NCBI GenBank assembly: GCA_016840465.1
Contig: JAEOSH010000026.1
Coordinates: 1 to 25,575 of the forward strand
Direction: 5' to 3'
DNA length: 25,575 nucleotides
Origin: Candidatus Baldrarchaeum yapensis
GTDB taxonomy: Archaea; Asgardarchaeota; Baldrarchaeia; Baldrarchaeales; Baldrarchaeaceae
Part shown: one piece after another, positions 2,482 through 19,317 of the stretch
Numbering within the stretch: position 1 is the stretch's first letter
Layout of the letters: every line of letters starts with the position of its first letter
The notes under the pieces: model-generated
Database searches by the model: none
What the model saw: the letters and a program-made list of their open reading frames with translations, nothing else
What the model was told of the DNA's origin: nothing
Translations under genes and position numbers: made by a program

Positions 2482-2709
2482 TTGAAAACAATTGCCGTAT
2501 CGGAGAGGATTTACCGGTTGTTATTATACGTCGAGAAAGAGTTAGGGGCGAAAAGTCATGGAGAGGCGATTGAGAGGTTGATTCGTATATATAAGGAGTA
2601 CAAGAAGGCGCGAATAAGGGAACTAATGAAACTTTCGAGGCTTCCGGAGGATAAGGTAAAGGAGCTGGAGGAAATAATTGCGAAGTTGAGGGATAGGCCG
2701 TGGAGATAA
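2482..2709 (+). CDS. vapB: VapB-type antitoxin (RHH-like N-terminus)
   Basis: MKTIAVSERIYRLL...SHGEAIERLI resembles a ribbon-helix-helix antitoxin. Lies immediately upstream of, and overlaps, a PIN gene. The ORF track starts at GTG 2473; TTG 2482 is preferred because GAGGTGA at 2470-2476 is an RBS. Confidence 0.75.
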   Translation: MKTIAVSERIYRLLLYVEKELGAKSHGEAIERLIRIYKEYKKARIRELMKLSRLPEDKVKELEEIIAKLRDRPWR

Positions 2710-3107
2710 GAACTTGTGTTCTCGACACATCGGTTGTGATCGCTATTTATGACAAGAATAAGGATTGGCTTTTGGAGTACATTTTCGAAAGGTATGAGAG
2801 GATATTAATACCGTGGATTGTGGAACACGAGTATCTATATGGACACGAGTACATAGGTGAGGACATTACGAGGAAAAAGTTTCTTCTTGAACAATTAGGT
2901 GAAATAGTATTTCCCACGCAGGATATTGTGATGCGAGCGGTAAAATTGGACGTTAATCTGGCAAAAGAGGGTATGCAGATACCATTTGGGGACATATACA
3001 TAGCAGCGGTCGCATTGACGTATAATGCAGATCTTGTCACGTTAGATGTGCGTCATTATGAGAGGGTTAAGGATCTTAAGGTTGTAGTTCCCAAAGAACA
3101 AAAATAG
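2700..3107 (+). CDS. vapC: PIN-domain ribonuclease toxin (VapC family)
   Basis: PIN acidic motifs VLDTSVVI, EHEYLYG, GDIYIAAVAL, LVTLDVRHY. 135 aa; overlaps the antitoxin by 10 nt. Confidence 0.92.
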   Translation: MEIRTCVLDTSVVIAIYDKNKDWLLEYIFERYERILIPWIVEHEYLYGHEYIGEDITRKKFLLEQLGEIVFPTQDIVMRAVKLDVNLAKEGMQIPFGDIYIAAVALTYNADLVTLDVRHYERVKDLKVVVPKEQK

Positions 3108-3113
3108 GAGAGA

Positions 3114-3653
3114 TTAAAGTTCTTTTAAGACGTCATCGAGTTTTTTGATTTCCGCATTCAGTACGTTTTTCATGTGTTCCAGTCCGTATTGTTGTGCTTT
3201 TTCGTCTATTGTGGCGACGCATTCCTCGGGAACTATTATTTTGTAGCCTAGGAAGTAGGCGTCGGCGGCCGTGTGCAGGACGCAGATGTTTGTGGCGACG
3301 CCCGTCAGTATCAATGTATCGACGCCCAACTCTCTCAGCGTGAGGTCGAGGGATGTCTGGAAGAATCCGCTGTATCTTCTCTTTTCTATGATTATGTCTC
3401 CGGGCTGGGGTTTTAGTTCGTCCACGACCTCGGCTCCCTTTGTTCCCTTAACGCAGTGCTTTGGCCAGATTTTGAACTCGGCGTCGTTCTCCAGATGGCT
3501 ATCGCATATGTATATTATTGGGATTTTCTTTTTGCGGGCCTCCTCTAGGAGTCTTTTTATGTTAGGGATTATTTTTCTCCCCTCTGGAAGTTCCAGAGGC
3601 GCGCCTTCGAGCAGGAAGTCGTTAAGCATGTCGATCACAAGGATTGCCTTCAT
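3114..3653 (-). CDS. pncA: Nicotinamidase / isochorismatase-family cysteine hydrolase
   Basis: VIDMLNDF, DSH, WPKHCVKGTKGAE, IEKRRYSGF, GVATNICVLHTA (Asp-Lys-Cys triad). Divergent from pncB. GGTGA RBS. Confidence 0.88.
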   Translation of the reverse strand: MKAILVIDMLNDFLLEGAPLELPEGRKIIPNIKRLLEEARKKKIPIIYICDSHLENDAEFKIWPKHCVKGTKGAEVVDELKPQPGDIIIEKRRYSGFFQTSLDLTLRELGVDTLILTGVATNICVLHTAADAYFLGYKIIVPEECVATIDEKAQQYGLEHMKNVLNAEIKKLDDVLKEL

Positions 3654-3857: not shown

Positions 3858-5105
3858 ATGGGCGATGACTATCTTTTCATTATGGCGACTCCCGAGGAGA
3901 TAAAGGAGGGAAAGACGACAGACATCTATTTTATCCGTACGGTCAAGATTTTAGAGGAGGACAACCTATCGAATGTTGTTGTGAATGCAGAATTCACTGC
4001 GAGCGGTTTTCCTGACAATTATCCATGGGCCTTCTTGGGAGGATTGAGAGACGTTGCCAAGCTTTTGGAGGGGCTCCCCATAGACGTTGATGCGATGCCA
4101 GAGGGTTCTGTCTTCTACAAGGAGGACTATTACGGTGTGAAGGAGCCCGTTATGGTCATTAGGGGGCCCTATGGCAAGTTTGCGATCTACGAGACTCCGG
4201 TGCTGGGATTTCTGTGTATGGGCTCAGGGGTTTTGACGAAGACCGCAAGATTGAGAAAGGTTGCCGGAGACGATGTCATATTGATTTCGTTCGGCGCTCG
4301 TAGGACTCATCCGGCGATTGCTCCATTTACTGCATTTTACGCGTACATTGGGGGATGTAATGCAGTTTCATGCGTTTTATCTGCTGAGAAGTTTTTGAAC
4401 ATGGCACCCGCGGGGACCATGCCTCATAGTCTCATAATAATATACAGTGTTGTTAAGGGCGACCAAGCAGAGGCGTGGAGAGCGTTTGACAGGGTGATGC
4501 CGCCTGAGGTTCCGCGTATAATGCTGTGTGACACTTATCTTGACGAAACCACCGAGAGCGTTAAAGCGGTTGAGGCTGTTGGTCCCGATAGGGTTTGGGG
4601 AGTGAGACTTGACACTCCAGGGTCTCGAAGAGGGAATTTTGCCGCAATAGTCAGGGAGGTCCTTTGGGAGTTGAGGGCGCGCGGGCTAAAGGGCAAAGTG
4701 TTCGTCTCGGGTGGTATTGACGAGGATGTCATACCGGAGTTGGTCAAGGCGGGGGTATCTGGGTTTGGTATAGGTTCCGCGATAGACAATGCCCGCATAA
4801 TAGACATTGCGATGGACATAACTGCAATATTTCAGAATGGGCAGTGGGTTCCGTGTGCGAAGCGTGGAAAGTTCTCGGGTGTTAAGAAGGTATATCGATG
4901 CCCCGACTGTCTGACCGATGCGATAACGTTGGAGAATGAGCCTAAACCCAAGTGTCCAAAGTGTGGCGGTGAGATGGAGAACATCTTACAGCCGCTGATT
5001 AGGAACGGAAAAATAGTCATGGAGTTTCCGGAGCCGAAGGAAGAAAGGGAATACGTACTGAAGCAACTGAAGAAATTGGACTTGAATAAACGTCCATGGG
5101 ATTAG
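3858..5105 (+). CDS. pncB: Nicotinate phosphoribosyltransferase with C-terminal Zn ribbon
   Basis: TDIYF, SFGARR, AGTMPHS, DTY, VRLDTPGSRRG, FVSGG, GFGIGSAI; CPDC...CPKC near the C-terminus. GGTGA RBS at 3847-3851. Confidence 0.93.
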   Translation: MGDDYLFIMATPEEIKEGKTTDIYFIRTVKILEEDNLSNVVVNAEFTASGFPDNYPWAFLGGLRDVAKLLEGLPIDVDAMPEGSVFYKEDYYGVKEPVMVIRGPYGKFAIYETPVLGFLCMGSGVLTKTARLRKVAGDDVILISFGARRTHPAIAPFTAFYAYIGGCNAVSCVLSAEKFLNMAPAGTMPHSLIIIYSVVKGDQAEAWRAFDRVMPPEVPRIMLCDTYLDETTESVKAVEAVGPDRVWGVRLDTPGSRRGNFAAIVREVLWELRARGLKGKVFVSGGIDEDVIPELVKAGVSGFGIGSAIDNARIIDIAMDITAIFQNGQWVPCAKRGKFSGVKKVYRCPDCLTDAITLENEPKPKCPKCGGEMENILQPLIRNGKIVMEFPEPKEEREYVLKQLKKLDLNKRPWD

Positions 5106-8100
5106 GTGCTGGTGTTATACGATTTCAGTAATTCGATGTCTGAACGCAGAACCCACTGCTTGTCCGGTTTGTATTTCAGATAGTATCCCGAAACAACCTT
5201 TCCTTCCATTTCTAATTGATTTAATAACTCCCTAATCTCATCCTCGTTGAGGCCCGACCACTCGCATATCTCATCTACCGTCGAGGGGCCATTGAACCAT
5301 AGGAACTTCTCTATGAGTTTCTTTTGGGCCAACCTCCTCGTTAAACTTTGGTAACGCTCCAATATTTCTGCTGGAAGGACGCGTTCCGGCAGATCCCATA
5401 CTATCATTGTCTTGCCTTTTTCGTCCTTTATTGTGTCCACGCGAATTATTAAGAAGTTGCTTTCCAGCCTCTGTAAGGAAACTCTCACATCGGAAATCTT
5501 CGCTTTCAGTTTCTTTTTCAATTGTATGATTGTTTGTGGGCCCTCAGCTTTTATTGTATCAAGGATCCTTCTGTCAAGGTCGTTGAGTGGAATGTTCTGT
5601 TCATACACCCTTCTGAAGATCGGGTACTCTTCGGTTACGATCCACAATGGTTGCAGGCCGCGCAGACATCTTATCCATAGTACTTTCCTTTCTCTCCACA
5701 ACTCTCTTGTTGCATTTTGTATTTCTTCCATGTTCATCTTCATTCGCTTTTTAAGGGAAGGTTCCTTATCCATTAATGCGTTTAGGGGACCGCAGTCTTT
5801 CAGTATTCTCACAATATCATCTTTTGTTGTTCCTAGAGAATCTTCTGTCAGACGTGACCTTCTCGCGTAGAATTTCTCAATGACCTCAGCCGGTATTGCT
5901 ATAAAAGTTAGGTTGCTGAGTTCTTCGTACATGTCCCTAGAGATCACCTGAGGAGTGGGTTTGTAGTCGACGAATTTTCCACTCAGGATCTCTCCGCCCA
6001 TTTCTAGGGATGAAAGTATTTTGCTTATCTCTTCGGCGGGTATTCGCGTGTATCTCTCTATTTCTTCCAGTGTTGATGGACCATTATTCCTCAGGAAGGT
6101 CATTATTGCTTCTCGTTTTGCCAGAGCAACGTCGTAGTTTTCTGCGGATTCTAAAATTGCGGGAGGAACTATCGACTCCCTCGCGCACCACAGGTTCTTC
6201 GTCGTGTACTTTCCATTTTTCTTTCTTTTTCTTCTATGTACCAGATATGCCTCTTCCAGAGACTTTAGTGCCTTCTTTACGGTTTTCACGTCCAGATTTA
6301 AGTCCCCGGCAATTTGTTCTTCCGTTGCCTTTCCTACAGTTCTCAGGTATCTTAGAACATTATTTTCGATGCGCGAAAGCGAGGAAATTTTCCTAAAGGC
6401 GGCGTAATATACGGGGTATCTTGCCATGGGGATATAACATGGTTTCTTGTACTTGAGGCAACGAACTTGGATAACTTTTCCTTCTTCCTCCAACATACCC
6501 AGCCATTGACGGACAATTTCGCGTGCCTTCTTATCGTTCTCCGCATGCACTCTTCTTACAATTTCGTCTTCTGGGAGCGCGCCGACATCAAATAATATTG
6601 TTAAGAGGTCATCGGGGGATCTTGCCATAGTTTCCTCAGTGAGGTGCTGTCGTTGCATGATCACACGTTCGACGATATCTCTTGGGAAAATCACTGGTGA
6701 TACCGGAATTCTCTCCATCTTCTCGGATATTCTCTGGAGAACTTTTCTATGCAATTCGCGCAGAAGTGTCTGCCTATCCTCCATTATCACTACATCGCTT
6801 ATTCCGACTAGGAGTATTCCGTGAGCAAAGGGCGATGGCACGTCGTGGGAGTGCAAGAAGTCAAACCTTATGTTTCCGCGTTCGATTTCCCTTAACACAT
6901 ACTCAGCGTTTTGTACGTCGAAAACGTCCTCTAGTATTTCCCTATATGTTTCTTTGACTACCGGGAAGTCCTCCCATTCTGAAATCAGGTCAAGAATTCT
7001 GGAAGCACGGAGTTGCTGTTTCGACAATGAAATTTCTACGCCCTTATACCGCTTAAGGATCATGAAACTCCTAGCGGCGACATGCTGGAATCTTCGCCTG
7101 AACAATTCTGTGTTCTTTACTGCTCTACGTAAAACCTCCCTCAATTCTCTCCAGTTCAGCAACTCCGGTATTTCGTGTATGTCCATCCTCTTATCGCTCG
7201 GAAGGACGAGGAGAAAGCCGTCGTCATTAACTGCGGTTCCAACATTTGCCCTAATCAAGTTTGAGATTTTATACGCGTATGCGCGGGAAAGAGCATCATT
7301 GACCCTTCTTCCAAATGGCGCATGGAAGATTATGTGTTGTTTTCCGCTATCATCGAAGAACTCCTCTATCAATATGACTCTATGTGTCGCGATTTTTCCT
7401 GAAAAGCGGAGTTGTTCGAGGAAGTAATTGATAATGCTGTTTGCAGCGTATTCGTCAAGATAATACTCCCTTACTAACCACTCCCTCACGCTGTCTTCGC
7501 CCTCGGTAAGTAGCCGTCGCACGACTTCCTCCCTAAATTTTCCGACTTCTATTGAAAGATCGAAGCTTCGCGGAAGCATTTCACCTACCCATGTTGGTAC
7601 CGTCGGTCTCTTTCCGAAAGCGCTCCTCACGAAGACTGTCATACCGCTGGTCGTGAGGTATTCGTATGTTTTTCCTCCTAGGACAAAGACATCTCCGGGA
7701 TTCAACCTTTCAAGGAATTTCTCGCTCAGCATTCCAATTTTCATGCCAGTATCTTTGTCGATGACCTTGAATTCCGCCTCTTCCGGTATAGTTCCAACGT
7801 TAAGGAAGTATATCATCCGAGAGGATTTCTTTCTCCCAAATTTCCCCTCGGAAAGATCAAGCCATATCTTTCTGTAGACTCCCGCGTACTCGAGGGGGGC
7901 ATATTCGCCACCTAGAAATCTCAGTACGGACAGATAGTCGTCCCAGCTGAGATCGTGGTAGCAGTACGAGCACCTTATCAGTTTATATGCGTCGTGGATG
8001 TCCCACTTGGCGTTAATCGACATTCCAACTATGTGCTGCGCCAGGACATCTAAGCAGTTTTTAGGTATTTGCACGCGATCTATCTTCCCATCATATGCTG

Positions 8101-9328
8101 CTTTTATCAAAACGGTACATTCTATTAGGTCATCTCTGTCGAAAACTATGAATCTTCCCTTGGACACTTCATGAAGATAATGTCCGGCTCTGCCGACTCG
8201 TTGCAGCCCCTTTGCAACGCTCTTTGGGCTTCCTATTTGTATTACCAGATCAATGTATCCGATGTCGATTCCGAGTTCAAGTGAGGTAGAGGTGACCACC
8301 GCCTTTAGTTCTCCGCGTTTTAGTTTGTCCTCAACGGTCAATCTTGTGTCTCGCGATAGGCTTCCATGGTGAGTTGCAATGTAGTCTATTAATTCGTCTC
8401 CTATGAACTGCTTGAGGTGGAAGGTAACGCTTTCGGCGCCGCTTCTTGTATTCGTAAATATCAGTGTGGTTCTATGCTTCTTCACGAGGTCTCTTATCAA
8501 TTCGTACATTCGGGCGTTAACATACGCGTAATCGGATCTTATTAGGTCCTTGACCGGGCATACGACCCTTATATCCAGTTTCTTTGTCTCATACACGTCG
8601 ACAATGGCGACATCTCTAAGTTCACCATCTTCCCTGTAACCCACAAGCCACTTTGCGATTTCCTCGAGTGGAGCCTGTGTTGCACTTAAACCTATTCTGA
8701 TGAACTCCCTGCCTATCATCCATCTTAGTCTTTCCAAGGAGAGCGAAAGATGTACCCCCCGTTTGTTATCGCATAGCTCATGTACCTCGTCCACTATAAC
8801 GTACCTGACAGTTGAAAGCTTTTGGCAGAACTTGGGAGCGCATAGCACTATTGCTAGGCTTTCTGGGGTTGTTATAAGGATGTGCGGTGCTTTTCTAAGC
8901 ATCTTTGCTTTTTCGCTCGATGAGGTGTCACCTGTACGGACGAACACTCTAATTTCCGGCAGTTCTATTCCCATCTCTTCGGCGACTTTGCGAATTCCCT
9001 CGAGCGGGAAAAGTAAGTTCTTTCTTATGTCGTTTGCTAGGGCTCTTAAGGGTGATATATACACGACGTAAACGCCATCGCCGAGTTCTCCCCTCTCTCC
9101 TAACTCGAAAAGCCAGTTTATTACAAATAGGAACGCGGCCAGAGTCTTCCCACTTCCGGTTGGGCTGAAAACGAGAACATTCTTTCCCTCTTTAATCAGG
9201 GGTATCGCCCGCCGTTGAGGAGGAGTGAAGGTTTCGAAGGTGCGGCGAAACCACTCTGCCACGTAAGGCCTAAGCATTGCAAGTATTTCCTCGTCGCTCC
9301 AGTCCCTGTTGACATATATTATTGCCAC
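5102..9328 (-). CDS. lhr: Lhr-family SF2 DEAD/H helicase with a long duplicated AlkZ/HTH_42-like winged-helix C-terminal extension (1408 aa)
   Basis: FTPPQ, PTGSGKT (Walker A), YISPLRAL, DEVH, GLSAT, HHGSLS, LELGIDIG, QRVGRAGH, LDVLAQHI, GRRVNDAL. The core of ~880 aa is followed by two 264-aa repeats. GGTGA RBS upstream of the GTG start. Confidence 0.95.
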   Translation of the reverse strand: MAIIYVNRDWSDEEILAMLRPYVAEWFRRTFETFTPPQRRAIPLIKEGKNVLVFSPTGSGKTLAAFLFVINWLFELGERGELGDGVYVVYISPLRALANDIRKNLLFPLEGIRKVAEEMGIELPEIRVFVRTGDTSSSEKAKMLRKAPHILITTPESLAIVLCAPKFCQKLSTVRYVIVDEVHELCDNKRGVHLSLSLERLRWMIGREFIRIGLSATQAPLEEIAKWLVGYREDGELRDVAIVDVYETKKLDIRVVCPVKDLIRSDYAYVNARMYELIRDLVKKHRTTLIFTNTRSGAESVTFHLKQFIGDELIDYIATHHGSLSRDTRLTVEDKLKRGELKAVVTSTSLELGIDIGYIDLVIQIGSPKSVAKGLQRVGRAGHYLHEVSKGRFIVFDRDDLIECTVLIKAAYDGKIDRVQIPKNCLDVLAQHIVGMSINAKWDIHDAYKLIRCSYCYHDLSWDDYLSVLRFLGGEYAPLEYAGVYRKIWLDLSEGKFGRKKSSRMIYFLNVGTIPEEAEFKVIDKDTGMKIGMLSEKFLERLNPGDVFVLGGKTYEYLTTSGMTVFVRSAFGKRPTVPTWVGEMLPRSFDLSIEVGKFREEVVRRLLTEGEDSVREWLVREYYLDEYAANSIINYFLEQLRFSGKIATHRVILIEEFFDDSGKQHIIFHAPFGRRVNDALSRAYAYKISNLIRANVGTAVNDDGFLLVLPSDKRMDIHEIPELLNWRELREVLRRAVKNTELFRRRFQHVAARSFMILKRYKGVEISLSKQQLRASRILDLISEWEDFPVVKETYREILEDVFDVQNAEYVLREIERGNIRFDFLHSHDVPSPFAHGILLVGISDVVIMEDRQTLLRELHRKVLQRISEKMERIPVSPVIFPRDIVERVIMQRQHLTEETMARSPDDLLTILFDVGALPEDEIVRRVHAENDKKAREIVRQWLGMLEEEGKVIQVRCLKYKKPCYIPMARYPVYYAAFRKISSLSRIENNVLRYLRTVGKATEEQIAGDLNLDVKTVKKALKSLEEAYLVHRRKRKKNGKYTTKNLWCARESIVPPAILESAENYDVALAKREAIMTFLRNNGPSTLEEIERYTRIPAEEISKILSSLEMGGEILSGKFVDYKPTPQVISRDMYEELSNLTFIAIPAEVIEKFYARRSRLTEDSLGTTKDDIVRILKDCGPLNALMDKEPSLKKRMKMNMEEIQNATRELWRERKVLWIRCLRGLQPLWIVTEEYPIFRRVYEQNIPLNDLDRRILDTIKAEGPQTIIQLKKKLKAKISDVRVSLQRLESNFLIIRVDTIKDEKGKTMIVWDLPERVLPAEILERYQSLTRRLAQKKLIEKFLWFNGPSTVDEICEWSGLNEDEIRELLNQLEMEGKVVSGYYLKYKPDKQWVLRSDIELLKSYNTST
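5105..6688 (-). repeat. Intragenic tandem duplication of a ~792-nt (264-aa) module, visible at protein level
   Basis: FPRDIVERVIMQRQHLTEET vs IPAEVIEKFYARRSRLTEDS, and FLRNNGPSTLEEI vs FLWFNGPSTVDEI, are each offset by exactly 792 nt (for example, Gly codons at 6080-6082 and 5288-5290). Confidence 0.9.
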
Positions 9329-9487
9329 GGAGCATGTTCACCCCATGTGACGGACAGGTATTCAGAAATATCCACTAATCCACTGTTATAAATTCTTGGA
9401 TTACAGGGAAGGATGGAATTAATATTGGGAACTTATCAGTTTAACTATTGGGACTAAAAGTTAGAATTTTCGCGTGGAGGACAATTG

Positions 9488-10291
9488 ATGGCAGAAAGCA
9501 CGCGCATCACGCTCCATAAAGGTGATGTGGAGATTGCATCAGGAATTCCCGCAATATTTGTGAAATCGATAGGCGCGGTCGTCATAGCGGATCTTCATAT
9601 TGGTTACGAGTGGGCGCTTGGTCAGCAGGACATTCATCTTCCGTTATCACAGTTCCCCGAGATGCTTGACGATATCAAGAGGCTTATCGAAACATACGAT
9701 CCGGATATACTTATAATAGATGGCGATCTCAAGCACGAGTTCAGTAAGGCGACTGCGCAGGAGTGGAGGGAGGTTCTAGATCTGCTCCATTTCCTCGACA
9801 AAAACATTCGAAAAACGTACGTTGTACGGGGCAACCATGACAATTTTATAAGGGGTTTCTTCCGGCGATACGAGCACGTGGATTTCGTGGAACCCTACTT
9901 ATTACTCGAGGATTACATGTTCTTGCATGGTGATAAGGAAATTCTCGACATCAATTCGCGAAAGGACGAGTATGAGGTTCTAGTAATAGGGCATGAGCAT
10001 CCCTCCATGATAATAGTGGACGAGGTCGGTGCTAGGGTCAGACTGAAAGTTTTGATGACGGGTCCTATGAAAATAGGACGAGAATTAATAGTGTTGCCAG
10101 CGTTTTCTCCGATAATGAGCGGAGTCGAGGTTGTGACAATAAGAGTTGGTGCGGGTGGTTTTGCCTTACCACAGAGTCAATTTCTATCCCCAATTTTGAG
10201 AAATTATACAGAGATAGGCGAGATGAGGGTTATTGGAATCGATAAGGAGGGAGGCGTGCTTCCCTTCCCGAAAATAGCCGATCTTTTATGA
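9488..10291 (+). CDS. Calcineurin-like metallophosphoesterase (COG1407, Lhr-associated type)
   Basis: ADLHIGYE, DGDLKHEF, RGNHDNF, LHGD, GHEHP, LPAFSP. GGAGG RBS at 9476-9480; divergent from lhr. The ORF track starts at TTG 9485. Confidence 0.9.
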   Translation: MAESTRITLHKGDVEIASGIPAIFVKSIGAVVIADLHIGYEWALGQQDIHLPLSQFPEMLDDIKRLIETYDPDILIIDGDLKHEFSKATAQEWREVLDLLHFLDKNIRKTYVVRGNHDNFIRGFFRRYEHVDFVEPYLLLEDYMFLHGDKEILDINSRKDEYEVLVIGHEHPSMIIVDEVGARVRLKVLMTGPMKIGRELIVLPAFSPIMSGVEVVTIRVGAGGFALPQSQFLSPILRNYTEIGEMRVIGIDKEGGVLPFPKIADLL

Positions 10292-10868: not shown

Positions 10869-12839
10869 TTAACCTAGTATATATAGGATTTGTGAGGCTA
10901 GATTAATTCCAAATCTATAAACGTTTTCCAAGCTTTTAGCATTTCTAGCAAGAGGGTACATACTCCCATGATACCTAGACCTGAACACCTGTAAGCATCT
11001 GCGTGCGAACTCATCGACCCTCTTCAATACTCTGAGGATCATTGATCGCGTGGGGACGCGCAAGAGGATTTTATCTCCTTCTTTTCTAAGTTCCGAACAC
11101 CTATGACGAACAACATCACATAGGGATACGAAGCTTATGCAGGGGAGTGCTCCTAGCAAAAGTAGCACTGCTGAGAGAAATTTGTATGCCTCAGCGATGA
11201 ATACATCGATAGAAAATCTAATATCGCCGTTCGTTAGCAAATCAAGTGCATATTTGAAGCTCTCGATCGATTTTCTCATCACATTGGCGCATATGTCGAG
11301 AACTTTTTTACGAAATGAATTTTCATCCCTAGAGGCCTCGAAAAGTTGTGCGAAGTATGGAACAGCACTTGACAGTATCGCTCTTATGATTTCAAGAATT
11401 AATTCTTCGGGCACACATAGTGGTGTTTCATCTCTTATTGCGACAACTCTGGGTACTAGTGTCATGAATAGAGACCTTAAGCCCTCGTATATTTGGGATG
11501 CTAGAGATTCGACCATAGACTTGCTCGCTTTCAATGGAATTTTTGATAAAAAGTTGCGTGTGACGAGCATTTCTATGGTCGTTCGACTGAAAGGATACAT
11601 GTGGCCGTTCTTGGATTTAATGACTAGGAAGTCTTGTGTCGATACGTAATATTGATACCTTGTTGAGAACTCTCCCGTTCCGTCAATGCTATCCAGCGCC
11701 CTGCAGACGCTCCAAACTATCTCATCAGATCCTACAATTGCGGATCCTCTCAGAGAGTTCACAATACTGTCAATGACCGATAGGGCTATTGAGACGTCTA
11801 TATTTGCACGTATCAGCGATTCGAGAATTTTTTCGTACGAAAATTTTGATAGTTTTCCATCACGTAACACTACATATTTCTTTTCCGAACTCAATGTGTC
11901 GAACAGTTCTTTTATTGGATTTTTTAGCCTCCCTACGTAATTTTCTTCCCAAAAACTCAGTATTCTTTCAAGTTCTCCTATTAATGCTTTACCTTTTGGT
12001 AGTATTTCCACCCACCTGTTGGATCTCTTGACAATCTCTGCGTTCTCGAGTTTTTCTAGCATACTATTAACCAAGGAAGGATCATGATACTGCTCAATAT
12101 CGAGTATAGGGAAGACTTTCTCGTATAGAAGGCCAAGATCACCTTCATACATGTGTAGCAGGAAGAGTAGAAGATAAATAGTTGCGGTTTCATTCCCGAA
12201 ACTTTCTAGTTTGTTTGCAACCTCCTTTAGATCCTCATATAAGTCCAGAAGCCATGAACCGATGGTGGATAATCTTATAATGTCTCGTTCTACCTTTTCG
12301 ACGACCCCGAGACTTTCCAAGCGTTGCATTATTGATGCATTAACAGAAATATCCGTAGATGTGGAAAGATCCGGAACTTGAGAGTAAGGACGCTTCGAAA
12401 GTTCTGTTAGAAGTTTATGAACGTAGGGGTCACATTCCTTTATAAGAATCATTATATCAATTATGAGCCTTAGGCTCTGTAACTTCATCAACAAGTCTAC
12501 CTTTTCATCGGAACTAAGGTCCTCGTCCTCGACCTGACTTACCGATATCCTATTCATGATCATTCCCTGTTTTTTAAGGAAATTTCCCAAATTCTCCTCC
12601 AAGATTTTCATCGCCGACTCGGCGGATTTTTTATCTATGGCCTTAATTACGAAAATTGCCTCCATTTCGTCCTCTATTATCTTCCAGCCCCTGATACGTG
12701 CCCCTACCTCTCTTACTTGCGCTTCCACTTCTTTCATCAGTTCTTGGAGGTCGTAAATTATTTTCCTGTCAAAATTGTTCAATTGATAAATGGCGGTGAG
12801 CATGTATCTTTTCGAGCGATTGCCGCTATATGAATACAT
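10869..12839 (-). CDS. Unrecognised multidomain protein: ferredoxin/ACT-like N-terminus, two winged-HTH, two ATP-cone-like domains, HEPN-like C-terminus
   Basis: wHTH wings MQRLESLGVVEKVERDIIRLSTIG and LEKLENAEIVKRSNRWVEILPKG; ATP-cone KYVVLRDGKLSKFSYEKILESLIRANID; second cone-like LVIKSKNGHMYPFSRTTIE; HEPN-like AEAYKFLSAVLLLLG...FRSRYH. Alternative start ATG 12803. The gene is certain, the domain calls are by eye. Confidence 0.6.
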   Translation of the reverse strand: MYSYSGNRSKRYMLTAIYQLNNFDRKIIYDLQELMKEVEAQVREVGARIRGWKIIEDEMEAIFVIKAIDKKSAESAMKILEENLGNFLKKQGMIMNRISVSQVEDEDLSSDEKVDLLMKLQSLRLIIDIMILIKECDPYVHKLLTELSKRPYSQVPDLSTSTDISVNASIMQRLESLGVVEKVERDIIRLSTIGSWLLDLYEDLKEVANKLESFGNETATIYLLLFLLHMYEGDLGLLYEKVFPILDIEQYHDPSLVNSMLEKLENAEIVKRSNRWVEILPKGKALIGELERILSFWEENYVGRLKNPIKELFDTLSSEKKYVVLRDGKLSKFSYEKILESLIRANIDVSIALSVIDSIVNSLRGSAIVGSDEIVWSVCRALDSIDGTGEFSTRYQYYVSTQDFLVIKSKNGHMYPFSRTTIEMLVTRNFLSKIPLKASKSMVESLASQIYEGLRSLFMTLVPRVVAIRDETPLCVPEELILEIIRAILSSAVPYFAQLFEASRDENSFRKKVLDICANVMRKSIESFKYALDLLTNGDIRFSIDVFIAEAYKFLSAVLLLLGALPCISFVSLCDVVRHRCSELRKEGDKILLRVPTRSMILRVLKRVDEFARRCLQVFRSRYHGSMYPLARNAKSLENVYRFGINLASQILYILG

Positions 12840-13701
12840 ACAGATGATCCTCCGCGTAAAATCTATCGATATTTATTCCACCTCGTATTTTCATTAGATT
12901 TCGCTGCCTTAAAATTATATTTAAGATTTTATTTCGCTCCTTCAGATCAAGATCCTCGGATGTTCGGGAGAGGAGTTTTAGGGGGACGTTTACGAAAAGG
13001 GGGCGTGCTGGTATTATGTGGCGTGTCGTCTTTGGAGGGAAGACTTCTCCTCTCAGGGCGACTTCCACGACATCCTTCTTGGCGATGGGGGGTGTTGCCA
13101 TGATTGCGTTGGCACCTGATTCTCGTAACGCAAGTGCATCCGCCTGGTAGGTTATCTTTGCGCGAAATGTTGTCGTTAATATTCTTTCTAATCTATACAC
13201 TTCGTCATAAAGGGCCTTTATGCTCAATGTTTCTTCAGGTAATATCAGAATTGCGCTTTTCCTCTGTTTTAACATTATTGCCGCAATTGCATTCTTAGAA
13301 TTCAATTCTTCCATTGCGACGTCGATATTGCATTTTTCTGTGCAATATTCCTGCGAGATCTTACTTACCATGTCATCTATTGGACCTTCCAGCCAGATCT
13401 CTCGATACCAATTACGGACTTTAATGTGAGGGTCTTCATATCTCACGAGGCAGGCGACAATGTACTCATAACCTAGCTCTCTTAGGGCGTAGTATCTATG
13501 CATTCCGTCTAATATAACGCGGGTTCGTTCATCAACTATTATTGGATTCATGAGGATAGAGGATCTTTTTATTTCCTTTACCAGTTTTTCGAGGAGGTGG
13601 GGTACTACCATCTCATGAGGATAGAGATCAGTCAACTTTAAAATGGATATTTTGAGCGTGAATATAGTGTGATCCGGGAGAAGGTGATTAATTACGAACA
13701 A
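12826..13701 (-). CDS. serK: SerK-like ParB/Srx-fold protein (putative ADP-dependent free serine kinase) with C-terminal extension
   Basis: LYPHEMVV, NPIIVD, LDGMHRYYAL, VRNWYR, RGEVFPPKTTRHIIP match the motifs of Thermococcus SerK (PHE, DGHHRW, FSPKTTRH). GAGGTG RBS before TTG. Confidence 0.72.
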   Translation of the reverse strand: MFVINHLLPDHTIFTLKISILKLTDLYPHEMVVPHLLEKLVKEIKRSSILMNPIIVDERTRVILDGMHRYYALRELGYEYIVACLVRYEDPHIKVRNWYREIWLEGPIDDMVSKISQEYCTEKCNIDVAMEELNSKNAIAAIMLKQRKSAILILPEETLSIKALYDEVYRLERILTTTFRAKITYQADALALRESGANAIMATPPIAKKDVVEVALRGEVFPPKTTRHIIPARPLFVNVPLKLLSRTSEDLDLKERNKILNIILRQRNLMKIRGGINIDRFYAEDHLYVFI

Positions 13702-18084: not shown

Positions 18085-19317
18085 TTAGAGATCTTCGCTG
18101 TGCACTCTGAACAGATCTATGTCTCCCGGTTCCTTTGGTACCTGTGTTGCTAACTGGAATAGGAACTCGCGTGTTGATCTCTCAACGTCACGACTTTGGG
18201 TTATGTATCTGCCGACTATCAAAATATCTGCTCCCATTGCGAGGGCTTCTGGAACCTTCTCCGGTACTATACCTCCTGCGACTGCAATTAGTATTTTATG
18301 CCCCTTGAATTTCTCCTTTATCTCTCTTATCCATCCCCACCGAAGATCTTCCTTTGTTTCAACATCTATTGCCCTATGTAGGATCACAACATCTGGAAGT
18401 TCATCCAGCGTTTCCAGTTTTGCGACCGGGTCGTTGACGTACATCATATCGACAAATGCATATATTCCTAGCCTGCGGGCCTCGTAGATGAACTTATTTA
18501 GAGAATCGGAGTCTGCGAGTCCGCTAGCTATCACACCATCCGCGGTTTCCTCATATGCTATGTCTACTTCGACCTTGCTTACGTCTAAAGTCTTGAGGTC
18601 AGCGACTATGAATGCATCACTTGCAACGCTACGTATTTGCCTGATTACTTGCGCGCCGTACCTCTTAATAAGTGGCGTTCCGGCTTCAAGGATTATTCTA
18701 TCGCTTTTAGGTAATTGTTTGACGATTTCCAGAGTCTTATTGATATTTGGGATATCCAGTGCTATCTGGAGGTATGGTGGGCGCCAGAGTCTGTTTGCTA
18801 TACGGAATCCTATATGAGGATGTACTGCTCTGTCCTTATCGTACATCAATTTGTCTATTGACGGGTAATTCATCAGTGCACGTCTTATTGCAAGTTTTGT
18901 CGCACTATAGTTATAGTTATAAAGCTTTCTGATATCTTTAGCTTTTGGACTGACAAAAACACTTGCAATTATTACCCAGTCATCTATCTTCTCTATCGGA
19001 ATTATTCCATCTTCTACCGCATCTGCTACTGCTTTCGCAACTGCAGCCTGTACCGGACCGAATACTATATTCGCTTGATCCAAGTTCTTGATCGTAACTT
19101 TAGGAACTATAAGTGTCCATGGCTTTGCTGGCAGATTTGGACGTATTACTGCGAGGAGCGGTGTATGTCCCATTTTGGGGTTTGCAAACGCCTCGGAGAA
19201 CGCCTTTCCGACGGGGCCGTCCTTATCACCTATTATTACTTCCACATGAGCGATCTCATCTCCCTTACCAACGCACGCCTCTCCTATCAGGAAGGTTTTC
19301 TTAGCAGAATTCTCCAT
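18085..19317 (-). CDS. fae-hps: Bifunctional formaldehyde-activating enzyme (H4MPT hydro-lyase) / 3-hexulose-6-phosphate synthase
   Basis: Fae domain [52 protein letters not shown]; Hps domain [35 protein letters not shown]. Confidence 0.93.

What the first reader, a model, noticed from the sequence alone, without database searches (positions are those of the whole stretch)
5105..6688. Archaeal Lhr helicase with a tandemly duplicated AlkZ/HTH_42-like tail (2 x 264 aa)
Seen: after the ~880-aa helicase core, residues ~881-1144 and ~1145-1408 align with an exact 792-nt offset. Each copy has three winged-helix units, including LIEKFLWFNGPSTVDEICEWSGL, which closely resembles the AlkZ-family RRYLxxxGPATxxDxxxWSGL motif. 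The position of the AlkZ/YcaQ catalytic Q-x-Q/Q-x-D motif reads GALPED and GPLNAL. Known: archaeal Lhr proteins are usually core-sized, while long bacterial Lhr proteins carry an AlkZ-like C-terminal domain linked to oligomerisation and, in E. coli, glycosylase activity. Inference: an unusual archaeal architecture with a doubled, probably non-canonical lesion- or crosslink-recognition platform.
Basis: partly seen in the sequence, partly recalled or inferred. Interest (0 to 1): 0.78.

Follow-up and report, generated by a model that had tools for sequence, protein, structure and literature searches.

The report
Asgard Lhr helicase, doubled winged-helix tail
An Asgard archaeon's DNA-repair helicase (Lhr) ends in two diverged copies of the three-winged-helix fold of AlkZ/YcaQ DNA glycosylases, but without their beta-barrel or catalytic residues; it is a trimmed, lineage-specific variant of a common but little-described family of long archaeal Lhr proteins.

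Summary
The ORF at 5102-9328 (minus strand) encodes a 1408-aa Lhr. Residues 881-1144 and 1145-1408 are an old tandem duplication (29% identity, E 6e-37, no DNA-level repeat). Each copy scores above the Pfam cut-off for AlkZ-like (PF06224). Each folds as three winged helices that fit YcaQ/AlkX and AlkZ at Z 17-20.

The interpretation needs correcting in three ways:
- Both copies lack the AlkZ beta-barrel and the Q-x-Q/Q-x-D motif. They read P-E-D and N-A-L, and neither is conserved in orthologues. An AlkZ-type or E. coli-Lhr-type glycosylase is therefore unlikely.
- In a module tree, both copies belong to the barrel-less module next to the helicase core ("M1"), not to the complete AlkZ-like modules.
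- Long archaeal Lhr proteins with 3-4 tandem modules occur in other Asgard families sampled. This scan has also noted long forms in other archaea, and the same two-module form in another Asgard genome. The two-module, barrel-less form was found only in this Baldrarchaeota-like order (5 of 5 genomes).

Both modules are under purifying selection (dN/dS 0.12-0.21), and a metallophosphoesterase gene stays linked to Lhr.

Most likely role, inferred only: a non-catalytic nucleic-acid-binding or assembly platform for the helicase. It is a new variant of a known kind, of moderate interest.

The parts
5102..9328 (-). Complete Lhr gene, 1408 codons plus a TAA stop. It starts at GTG 9326-9328, the first start codon after an in-frame TGA.
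   Evidence: ORF list and translation. The start aligns with the Met of orthologues. Sequence around the start and stop was read directly.
6749..9328 (-). Lhr-Core, aa 1-860: DEAD 35-220 (GSGKT at 58, DEVH at 180, SAT at 215), Helicase_C 276-383 (QRVGRAGH at 376), WH_Lhr 411-575, DEAD_assoc/Domain 4 647-835.
   Evidence: Pfam. Motifs. phmmer to the M. smegmatis Lhr core 5V9X gives E 1.9e-137.
6689..6748 (-). Linker, aa 861-880. Poorly conserved (20-30% identity to orthologues) and of low model confidence.
5897..6688 (-). Repeat 1 (R1), aa 881-1144. Three winged helices, approximately WHa 883-967, WHb 985-1049 (pI about 10) and WHc 1065-1130.
   Evidence: PF06224 40.8 bits when scanned alone. 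Model pLDDT 93.8, pTM 0.88. VIA-align: Z 19.3 to YcaQ/AlkX 9zd6, 16.6 to AlkZ 5uuj, 16.2 to M. smegmatis Lhr-CTD residues 1079-1377. Charge figures.
5105..5896 (-). Repeat 2 (R2), aa 1145-1408. Three winged helices, approximately WHa 1147-1231, WHb 1249-1312 (pI about 9.7) and WHc 1329-1394. The protein ends here with no beta-barrel.
   Evidence: PF06224 44.3 bits when scanned alone. VIA-align: Z 19.8 to 9zd6_B residues 16-290 and Z 18.0 to AlkZ residues 3-275.
6566..6583 (-). R1 position of the AlkZ Q-x-Q / YcaQ Q-x-D motif. It reads GALPED (aa 916-921), so the motif triplet is P-E-D.
   Evidence: Aligned to GGLHAQ of stand-alone PF06224 proteins. Orthologues read KIS and KLS.
5774..5791 (-). 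R2 position of the same motif. It reads GPLNAL (aa 1180-1185), so the motif triplet is N-A-L.
   Evidence: Orthologues read YTL.
5249..5317 (-). R2 WHc motif around NGPST (aa 1338-1360), shared with HTH_42 proteins. G-P-S-T is invariant in all six repeat copies aligned.
9485..10291 (+). Metallophosphoesterase (MPE) gene, 268 aa. It is divergent from lhr here. In the sister family it lies directly upstream on the same strand.
   Evidence: Pfam Metallophos. Orthologues at 48-50% identity adjacent to lhr in the two sister-family genomes (G001, G002) whose upstream DNA was held.

Best explanation
This is an aLhr2/bLhr-HTH-type Lhr helicase, a 3'-to-5' ssDNA translocase, from a Baldrarchaeota-like Asgard archaeon. 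Its C-terminal domain is reduced to two tandem, diverged copies of the barrel-less three-winged-helix module (here called M1) that follows the core in other long Lhr proteins. Each copy has the C-shaped AlkZ/YcaQ winged-helix fold. Neither has the beta-barrel or the catalytic Q-x-Q/Q-x-D residues. The tail is therefore most likely a non-catalytic accessory platform: six winged helices, two of them strongly basic, that hold duplex or branched nucleic acid and/or organise assembly of the motor during repair. The linked metallophosphoesterase nuclease probably works alongside it. Shown here: the anatomy, the fold, the absence of motif and barrel, conservation within the order, and purifying selection. 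Inferred only: nucleic-acid binding or an assembly role, and cooperation with MPE.
For: The core carries all Lhr domains and motifs and matches 5V9X at E 1.9e-137. It scores 463 bits to M. smegmatis Lhr, against 272 bits for the genome's second, aLhr1-like paralogue. The duplication is significant at E 6e-37. Both repeats score above the PF06224 cut-off. Both fit YcaQ-DNA and AlkZ at Z 16.6-19.8 over about 240 residues, against about Z 10-12 for the next, single-WH hits. The whole tail's best Foldseek hit is the M. smegmatis Lhr-CTD 7LHL. Structural alignments stop at AlkZ residue 275 and M. smegmatis residue 1377, before their barrels, and the ORF ends there against a convergent gene. The motif triplets are P-E-D and N-A-L and are not conserved in orthologues. 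The module tree puts R1, R2 and all M1 modules in one clade (support 97/92), apart from the barrel-bearing M2-M4 modules. The same two-module tail is present in all 4 genomes of the sister family. dN/dS is 0.17-0.21 for R1 and 0.12-0.15 for R2. The WHb units have pI of about 10. MPE linkage is conserved. Lhr-MPE clustering is known in bacteria (my own knowledge: Ejaz and Shuman 2018).
Against: No binding or activity data exist for any archaeal long Lhr. The isolated M. smegmatis CTD did not shift DNA in EMSA (PMC8053096). The E. coli CTD also binds ssDNA poorly on its own (PMC10953399). A DNA-binding role is therefore not a given. The inter-module arrangement is uncertain (tail pTM 0.54). R1 keeps an acidic pair (E920-D921) at the motif site in this one genome.
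Confidence: 0.6

Rival explanations
1. The tail mainly serves homo-oligomerisation, as the M. smegmatis Lhr-CTD does. There, tetramerisation through the CTD is required for crosslink repair in vivo.
For: The whole tail's best structural match is the M. smegmatis Lhr-CTD. In mycobacteria the CTD nucleates a tetramer, and interface mutants fail to complement (PMC8053096, PMC9841417).
Against: The main mycobacterial interface residues (H1199, R1206, R1286) lie in the WH4-6 AlkZ-like subdomain, which is an M2-type module. Both modules here are M1-type by phylogeny. The barrel is absent.
Confidence: 0.2
2. One or both modules are an active, non-canonical DNA glycosylase, giving a fused helicase-glycosylase like E. 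coli Lhr.
For: The fold and Pfam family are those of AlkZ/YcaQ. E. coli Lhr has UDG activity without a Q-x-Q motif (PMC10953399). R1 has E920-D921 at the motif site.
Against: The motif residues are not conserved among orthologues: KIS/KLS in R1 and YTL in R2. The beta-barrel is missing, and with it any equivalent of E. coli Asp-1536. In AlkZ both glutamines of the motif are reported as catalytically essential, and YcaQ uses a catalytic Q-x-D motif (PMC9040887).
Confidence: 0.08
3. The tail is a decaying remnant of a longer multi-module CTD and has no function of its own.
For: The core nests in a clade whose other sampled members are 1433-2350 aa, nearly all over 1680 aa, and the ones dissected carry 3-4 modules with barrels. 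The tail evolves faster than the core: 42-44% identity to orthologues against 73%.
Against: Both modules are intact in 5 of 5 genomes of the order, with dN/dS 0.12-0.21. Model confidence is high.
Confidence: 0.05

Closest known systems
Bacterial full-length Lhr (bLhr-HTH): M. smegmatis Lhr (PDB 5V9X core, 7LHL CTD) and E. coli Lhr
   Same: It has the same four-domain Lhr-Core (E 1.9e-137). A CTD built of tandem winged helices follows it. The whole tail's best structural match is 7LHL. At the sequence level, M1 WHa and WHc match M. smegmatis WH2 and WH3 weakly.
   Different: There are six winged helices (2 x 3) instead of five. There is no beta-barrel, so no equivalent of the complete AlkZ-like subdomain or of E. 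coli Asp-1536. The middle winged helix of M1, absent from the canonical ~1500-aa forms, is present here. The second module is M1-type, not M2-type. The oligomeric state is unknown.
Long multi-module archaeal Lhr (1700-2350 aa) of other Asgard families and other archaea
   Same: The core belongs to the same clade (SH-aLRT 99). The M1 module directly after the core is the same. R2 is 33% identical to M1 of family f6.
   Different: Those proteins continue after M1 with 2-3 complete AlkZ-like modules. A ~150-aa segment follows each module, and for one it matches the barrel part of PF06224 (positions 16-298 of 329). This protein instead has a second M1-type copy and stops. No partner gene made of such modules exists in this genome.
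AlkZ / YcaQ (AlkX) interstrand-crosslink DNA glycosylases (HTH_42, PF06224; PDB 5UUJ, 9ZD6)
   Same: It has the same three-winged-helix C-shaped array (Z 16.6-19.8, rmsd 2.4-3.6 A over about 240 residues). It shares the GPST/GPAT-type motif in WH3.
   Different: There is no beta-barrel domain and no Q-x-Q or Q-x-D catalytic motif. The module is duplicated and fused to a helicase.
aLhr2 with an HTH_42 extension in Methanomassiliicoccales (Hajj et al. 2021, PMC8301817)
   Same: Both are archaeal aLhr2-type proteins carrying a PF06224-positive C-terminal extension.
   Different: That paper reports only the presence of the domain. It describes no module count, duplication, barrel status or Asgard examples. 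I made no direct comparison here.

Membership tests
Lhr helicase (Lhr-Core, COG1201) | Two RecA-like domains with SF2 motifs I, II, III and VI | tested here: met
   DEAD 114 bits and Helicase_C 61.5 bits. GSGKT at 58, DEVH at 180, SAT at 215, QRVGRAGH at 376.
Lhr helicase (Lhr-Core, COG1201) | Lhr-type winged helix plus Domain 4 (DEAD_assoc, PF08494) | tested here: met
   WH_Lhr 128.5 bits and DEAD_assoc 201.6 bits. 5V9X at E 1.9e-137.
aLhr2 / bLhr-HTH group (as opposed to aLhr1) | Core closer to bLhr-HTH than the aLhr1 paralogue is | tested here: met
   463 bits to M. smegmatis Lhr, against 272 bits for the genome's 955-aa paralogue. The two paralogues are 33% identical. No reference aLhr1 or aLhr2 sequences were included, so the assignment is indirect.
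HTH_42 / AlkZ-like (PF06224) | Pfam score above the gathering cut-off | tested here: met
   R1 40.8 bits and R2 44.3 bits against a cut-off of 25.9. The matches cover only profile positions 71-218 of 329.
HTH_42 / AlkZ-like (PF06224) | Three tandem winged helices in a C-shaped array | tested here: met
   Z 19.8 and 19.3 to 9zd6, Z 18.0 and 16.6 to 5uuj, over 238-242 residues.
HTH_42 / AlkZ-like (PF06224) | C-terminal beta-barrel domain | tested here: not met
   The alignments end at AlkZ residue 275 and YcaQ residue 290-293. R1 runs directly into R2, and R2 ends the protein.
AlkZ/YcaQ DNA glycosylases (functional class) | Catalytic Q-x-Q (AlkZ) or Q-x-D (YcaQ) motif in WH1 | tested here: not met
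   The triplets are P-E-D (R1) and N-A-L (R2), in the columns where PF06224 members read H-A-Q. They are not conserved in orthologues.
Bacterial Lhr-CTD (7LHL type) | Five winged helices (WH2-6) plus a beta-barrel | tested here: not met
   Six winged helices and no barrel. It is homologous but has a different module make-up.
Bacterial Lhr-CTD (7LHL type) | CTD-nucleated homo-tetramer | not testable with these tools
   This needs SEC-MALS, mass photometry or cryo-EM.
E. coli Lhr uracil-DNA glycosylase | Active-site Asp-1536 at the extreme C-terminus of the CTD | tested here: not met
   The region that holds it, the C-terminal barrel, has no counterpart here. The residue is defined in PMC10953399.

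The most novel reading that the evidence does not exclude
The barrel-less M1 module may be an autonomous functional unit of Lhr C-terminal domains. It could act as a duplex or fork-DNA clamp, or as a docking site for partners such as MPE. On this reading the Baldrarchaeota Lhr is a natural minimal CTD made of two such units. That would show that the essential contribution of the Lhr tail to repair needs neither the glycosylase-like barrel nor a catalytic site. It would also imply that the CTD of canonical bacterial Lhr is itself an M1 remnant followed by one AlkZ-like module.
Probability: 0.2. Interest if true: 0.55.

Novelty: new variant of a known kind. Interest (0 to 1): 0.38.

Why it matters
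What the large Lhr tail does is still open. In mycobacteria it is needed for tetramerisation. In E. coli it is a uracil glycosylase. In archaea it has not been studied. This protein is a natural deletion-and-duplication experiment: it keeps only the barrel-less winged-helix module, twice, under purifying selection. It is small enough to express. It would let one ask what the winged-helix array contributes on its own, whether DNA binding, assembly or partner docking, separately from any barrel-borne catalysis. The module tree also gives a simple grammar for Lhr tails (M1 followed by n AlkZ-like units), which I did not find in the papers held here. It does not reveal a new kind of system.

Tried and rejected
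- **Homodimer prediction.** I ran the tail (residues 883-1382, two copies). The verdict was "no answer", with a score of 0.00 against a mark of 0.42. This is no evidence either way.
- **Sequence route to AlkZ/YcaQ in the PDB.** Repeat profiles reached only generic single-winged-helix proteins and weak M. smegmatis Lhr matches. I obtained residue equivalence at the catalytic motif by aligning stand-alone PF06224 proteins to the repeat profile instead.
- **DNA-level repeat search of 5105-6688.** It found only short chance matches. A recent duplication or assembly artefact is rejected.
- **Word-indexed homologue search.** It returned only 5 proteins and understated the family. The exhaustive profile search found 273.
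- **Partner or stand-alone module gene.** I looked for a separate partner gene or a stand-alone AlkZ-like gene in this genome. None was found with the repeat profile or with PF06224, in a genome that is 96% complete.
- **Origin of R1 and R2.** The best tree places R2 inside the M1 clade and R1 outside it. The AU test does not reject R1+R2 as one clade (p 0.114). The timing of the duplication is therefore unresolved.
- **Taxonomy of the ~1800-aa representatives.** One lookup gave an unnamed NCBI MAG with archaeal-looking neighbours. The other returned no DNA. I did not pursue this.
Full report
**The gene.** The finding's coordinates (5105-6688) are the last 528 codons of a 1408-codon ORF on the minus strand, 5102-9328. 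It starts at a GTG, which is the first start codon after an in-frame TGA and aligns with the Met of orthologues. Its TAA stop overlaps the stop of a convergent nicotinate phosphoribosyltransferase-like gene, so no coding room is left beyond residue 1408.

Pfam finds the full Lhr-Core: DEAD 35-220, Helicase_C 276-383, WH_Lhr 411-575 and DEAD_assoc/Domain 4 647-835. It then finds two matches to AlkZ-like PF06224. The helicase motifs GSGKT, DEVH, SAT and QRVGRAGH are intact. The core matches the M. smegmatis Lhr core 5V9X at E 1.9e-137.

**The duplication.** Residues 881-1144 (R1) and 1145-1408 (R2) align at 29% identity, E 6e-37. Both are 264 aa. No repeat is visible at the DNA level, so the duplication is old. 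Scanned alone, each copy passes the PF06224 cut-off (40.8 and 44.3 bits against 25.9). Each match covers only profile positions about 71-218 of 329.

**Fold.**
- An AlphaFold model of residues 860-1408 (pLDDT 87.5, pTM 0.54) shows three winged helices per copy.
- Its best Foldseek match is the M. smegmatis Lhr-CTD 7LHL over about 560 columns, followed by YcaQ/AlkX bound to DNA (9ZD6) and AlkZ (5UUJ).
- With VIA-align, R2 fits 9ZD6 residues 16-290 at Z 19.8 (rmsd 2.4 A, 238 residues). It fits AlkZ residues 3-275 at Z 18.0.
- R1 modelled alone (pLDDT 93.8, pTM 0.88) fits 9ZD6 at Z 19.3, AlkZ residues 1-273 at Z 16.6, and M. smegmatis Lhr residues 1079-1377 (WH4-6) at Z 16.2.
- The next hits are single winged-helix proteins at about Z 10-12.
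- Both copies therefore have the complete three-winged-helix array of AlkZ/YcaQ. The alignments stop where the beta-barrels of AlkZ (276-371) and M. smegmatis Lhr (about 1374-1506) begin. Neither copy has a barrel.

**Catalytic motif.** Stand-alone proteins found with the repeat profile are full PF06224 members (about 148 bits, profile positions 2-292). They read GGLHAQ in the columns where R1 reads GALPED and R2 reads GPLNAL. The motif triplets are thus P-E-D and N-A-L. In the sister-family orthologues they are K-I-S or K-L-S, and Y-T-L. There is no conserved Q-x-Q or Q-x-D equivalent. The E. coli Lhr UDG residue Asp-1536 lies at the extreme C-terminus of the CTD (PMC10953399). That part has no counterpart here.

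**Organism and relatives.** Related loci are titled Candidatus Baldrarchaeota, with one titled Odinarchaeota. The window therefore lies in an Asgard archaeon, and its genome is 96% complete.
- All four genomes of the sister family carry the same two-module tail at 41-44% identity. Some of those genes also carry one or two inteins in the core.
- Other families of the phylum carry Lhr frames of 1900-2350 aa with three or four modules.
- In the 2349-aa form the modules lie at 885-1147, 1153-1402, 1555-1803 and 1955-2207. About 150 extra residues follow modules 2-4. The second module plus its extension matches PF06224 positions 16-298, which includes part of the barrel.
- An exhaustive profile search found 273 proteins. 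Many are 1700-1950-aa Lhr proteins with the same layout.
- The canonical ~1500-aa forms match only the first and third winged helix of the module, directly after the core. This agrees with WH2-WH3 of the mycobacterial structure (PMC8053096).

**Module and core phylogeny.**
- In a maximum-likelihood tree of 44 modules, R1, R2 and every core-proximal module (M1) form one clade (support 97/92).
- R2 nests among the M1 modules (98/97). The barrel-bearing M2-M4 modules lie elsewhere.
- An AU test does not reject R1+R2 as a single clade (p 0.114). A duplication within this lineage therefore remains possible.
- A tree of cores puts this protein in a well-supported clade (SH-aLRT 99) with the long multi-module archaeal forms, apart from the ~1500-aa forms.
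- The simplest reading is that this lineage lost the barrel-bearing modules and carries two M1-type copies. This is an inference.

**Constraint and context.**
- Identity to sister-family orthologues is 73% in the core and 42-44% in the repeats.
- Among three sister-family genomes, dN/dS is 0.17-0.21 for R1 and 0.12-0.15 for R2. Both modules are maintained by selection.
- The middle winged helix of each copy is strongly basic, with pI of about 10.
- A metallophosphoesterase gene adjoins lhr in both sister-family genomes whose upstream DNA was held. It is co-directional and upstream there, and divergent here.
- The genome holds a second, aLhr1-like Lhr of 955 aa. It is 33% identical in the core and more distant from M. 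smegmatis Lhr.
- The genome holds no other AlkZ-like or module-bearing gene.

**Function.** The helicase motor is almost certainly active. The tail cannot work as an AlkZ/YcaQ-type or E. coli-Lhr-type glycosylase, because the defining residues and the barrel are absent and the motif site is not conserved. The best-supported reading is a non-catalytic winged-helix platform that binds nucleic acid and/or organises assembly. This rests on fold, charge, selection and analogy with the CTD dependence of mycobacterial Lhr in vivo (PMC9841417). It is not demonstrated. A homodimer prediction gave no verdict.

**What is known.** Hajj et al. (PMC8301817) noted an HTH_42 extension on aLhr2 of Methanomassiliicoccales and unexplained extensions in Thermoplasmatales. 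Warren et al. (PMC8053096) described the bacterial CTD as five winged helices plus a barrel. Searches of the held library found no description of tandem module arrays or of a barrel-less doubled form.

Earlier notes of this scan report the same two-module form in another Asgard genome, and long multi-module forms in Heimdall, Marine Group II and Thermoplasmata archaea. My tests agree with the first of these, and with long forms for Asgard families only; the other lineages were not examined here.

**Verdict.** This is a new variant of a known kind, of moderate interest.

Noticed in passing
window 9485-10291 versus L022 285-1118 and L036 2305-3075: The metallophosphoesterase gene next to lhr lies on the opposite strand here (divergent). 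In the sister-family genomes it lies directly upstream on the same strand. This is a local inversion that keeps the linkage.
   Followed up: partly
L022 1190-8725 (G002); P0006; P0007: Sister-family lhr genes carry inteins with LAGLIDADG domains in the RecA domains. G002 has two (2512-aa frame), and P0006 and P0007 have one each. The window's gene has none.
   Followed up: partly
L016 478-6786 (G001:C5): In this relative, whose record is titled Odinarchaeota, an in-frame TAA interrupts repeat 2 and leaves a separate 183-aa frame. It could be a sequencing error, a pseudogene or a truncated variant.
   Followed up: no
L033 1944-4811 (G000 contig C67): A second Lhr paralogue of 955 aa is present in the same genome. 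It has the core domains plus about 165 extra C-terminal residues and no AlkZ-like match. It is probably aLhr1-type.
   Followed up: partly
window 10869-12839 and 12826-13701, minus strand: Two overlapping ORFs of 656 aa and 291 aa have no family assignment apart from a partial ATP-cone hit at residues 321-363 of the larger one.
   Followed up: no
window 3114-3653 (minus strand) and 3858-5105 (plus strand): An isochorismatase-family gene (a possible nicotinamidase) and a nicotinate phosphoribosyltransferase-like gene are syntenic with lhr across the whole order (72-78% identity). The latter's stop codon overlaps the lhr stop.
   Followed up: partly
window 18085-19317, minus strand: A fused formaldehyde-activating enzyme (Fae) and OMP-decarboxylase/HUMPS-family protein of 410 aa, as in archaeal ribulose-monophosphate pathway fusions.
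   Followed up: no
window 2700-3107, plus strand: A PIN-domain protein of 135 aa, possibly a VapC-type toxin. I did not look for a partner antitoxin.
   Followed up: no
P0011 (1433 aa, metagenomic): Another short-tailed Lhr. Its M1 is followed by a true M2-type module with apparently no barrel. It may be a truncated gene call or a second, independent reduction.
   Followed up: no
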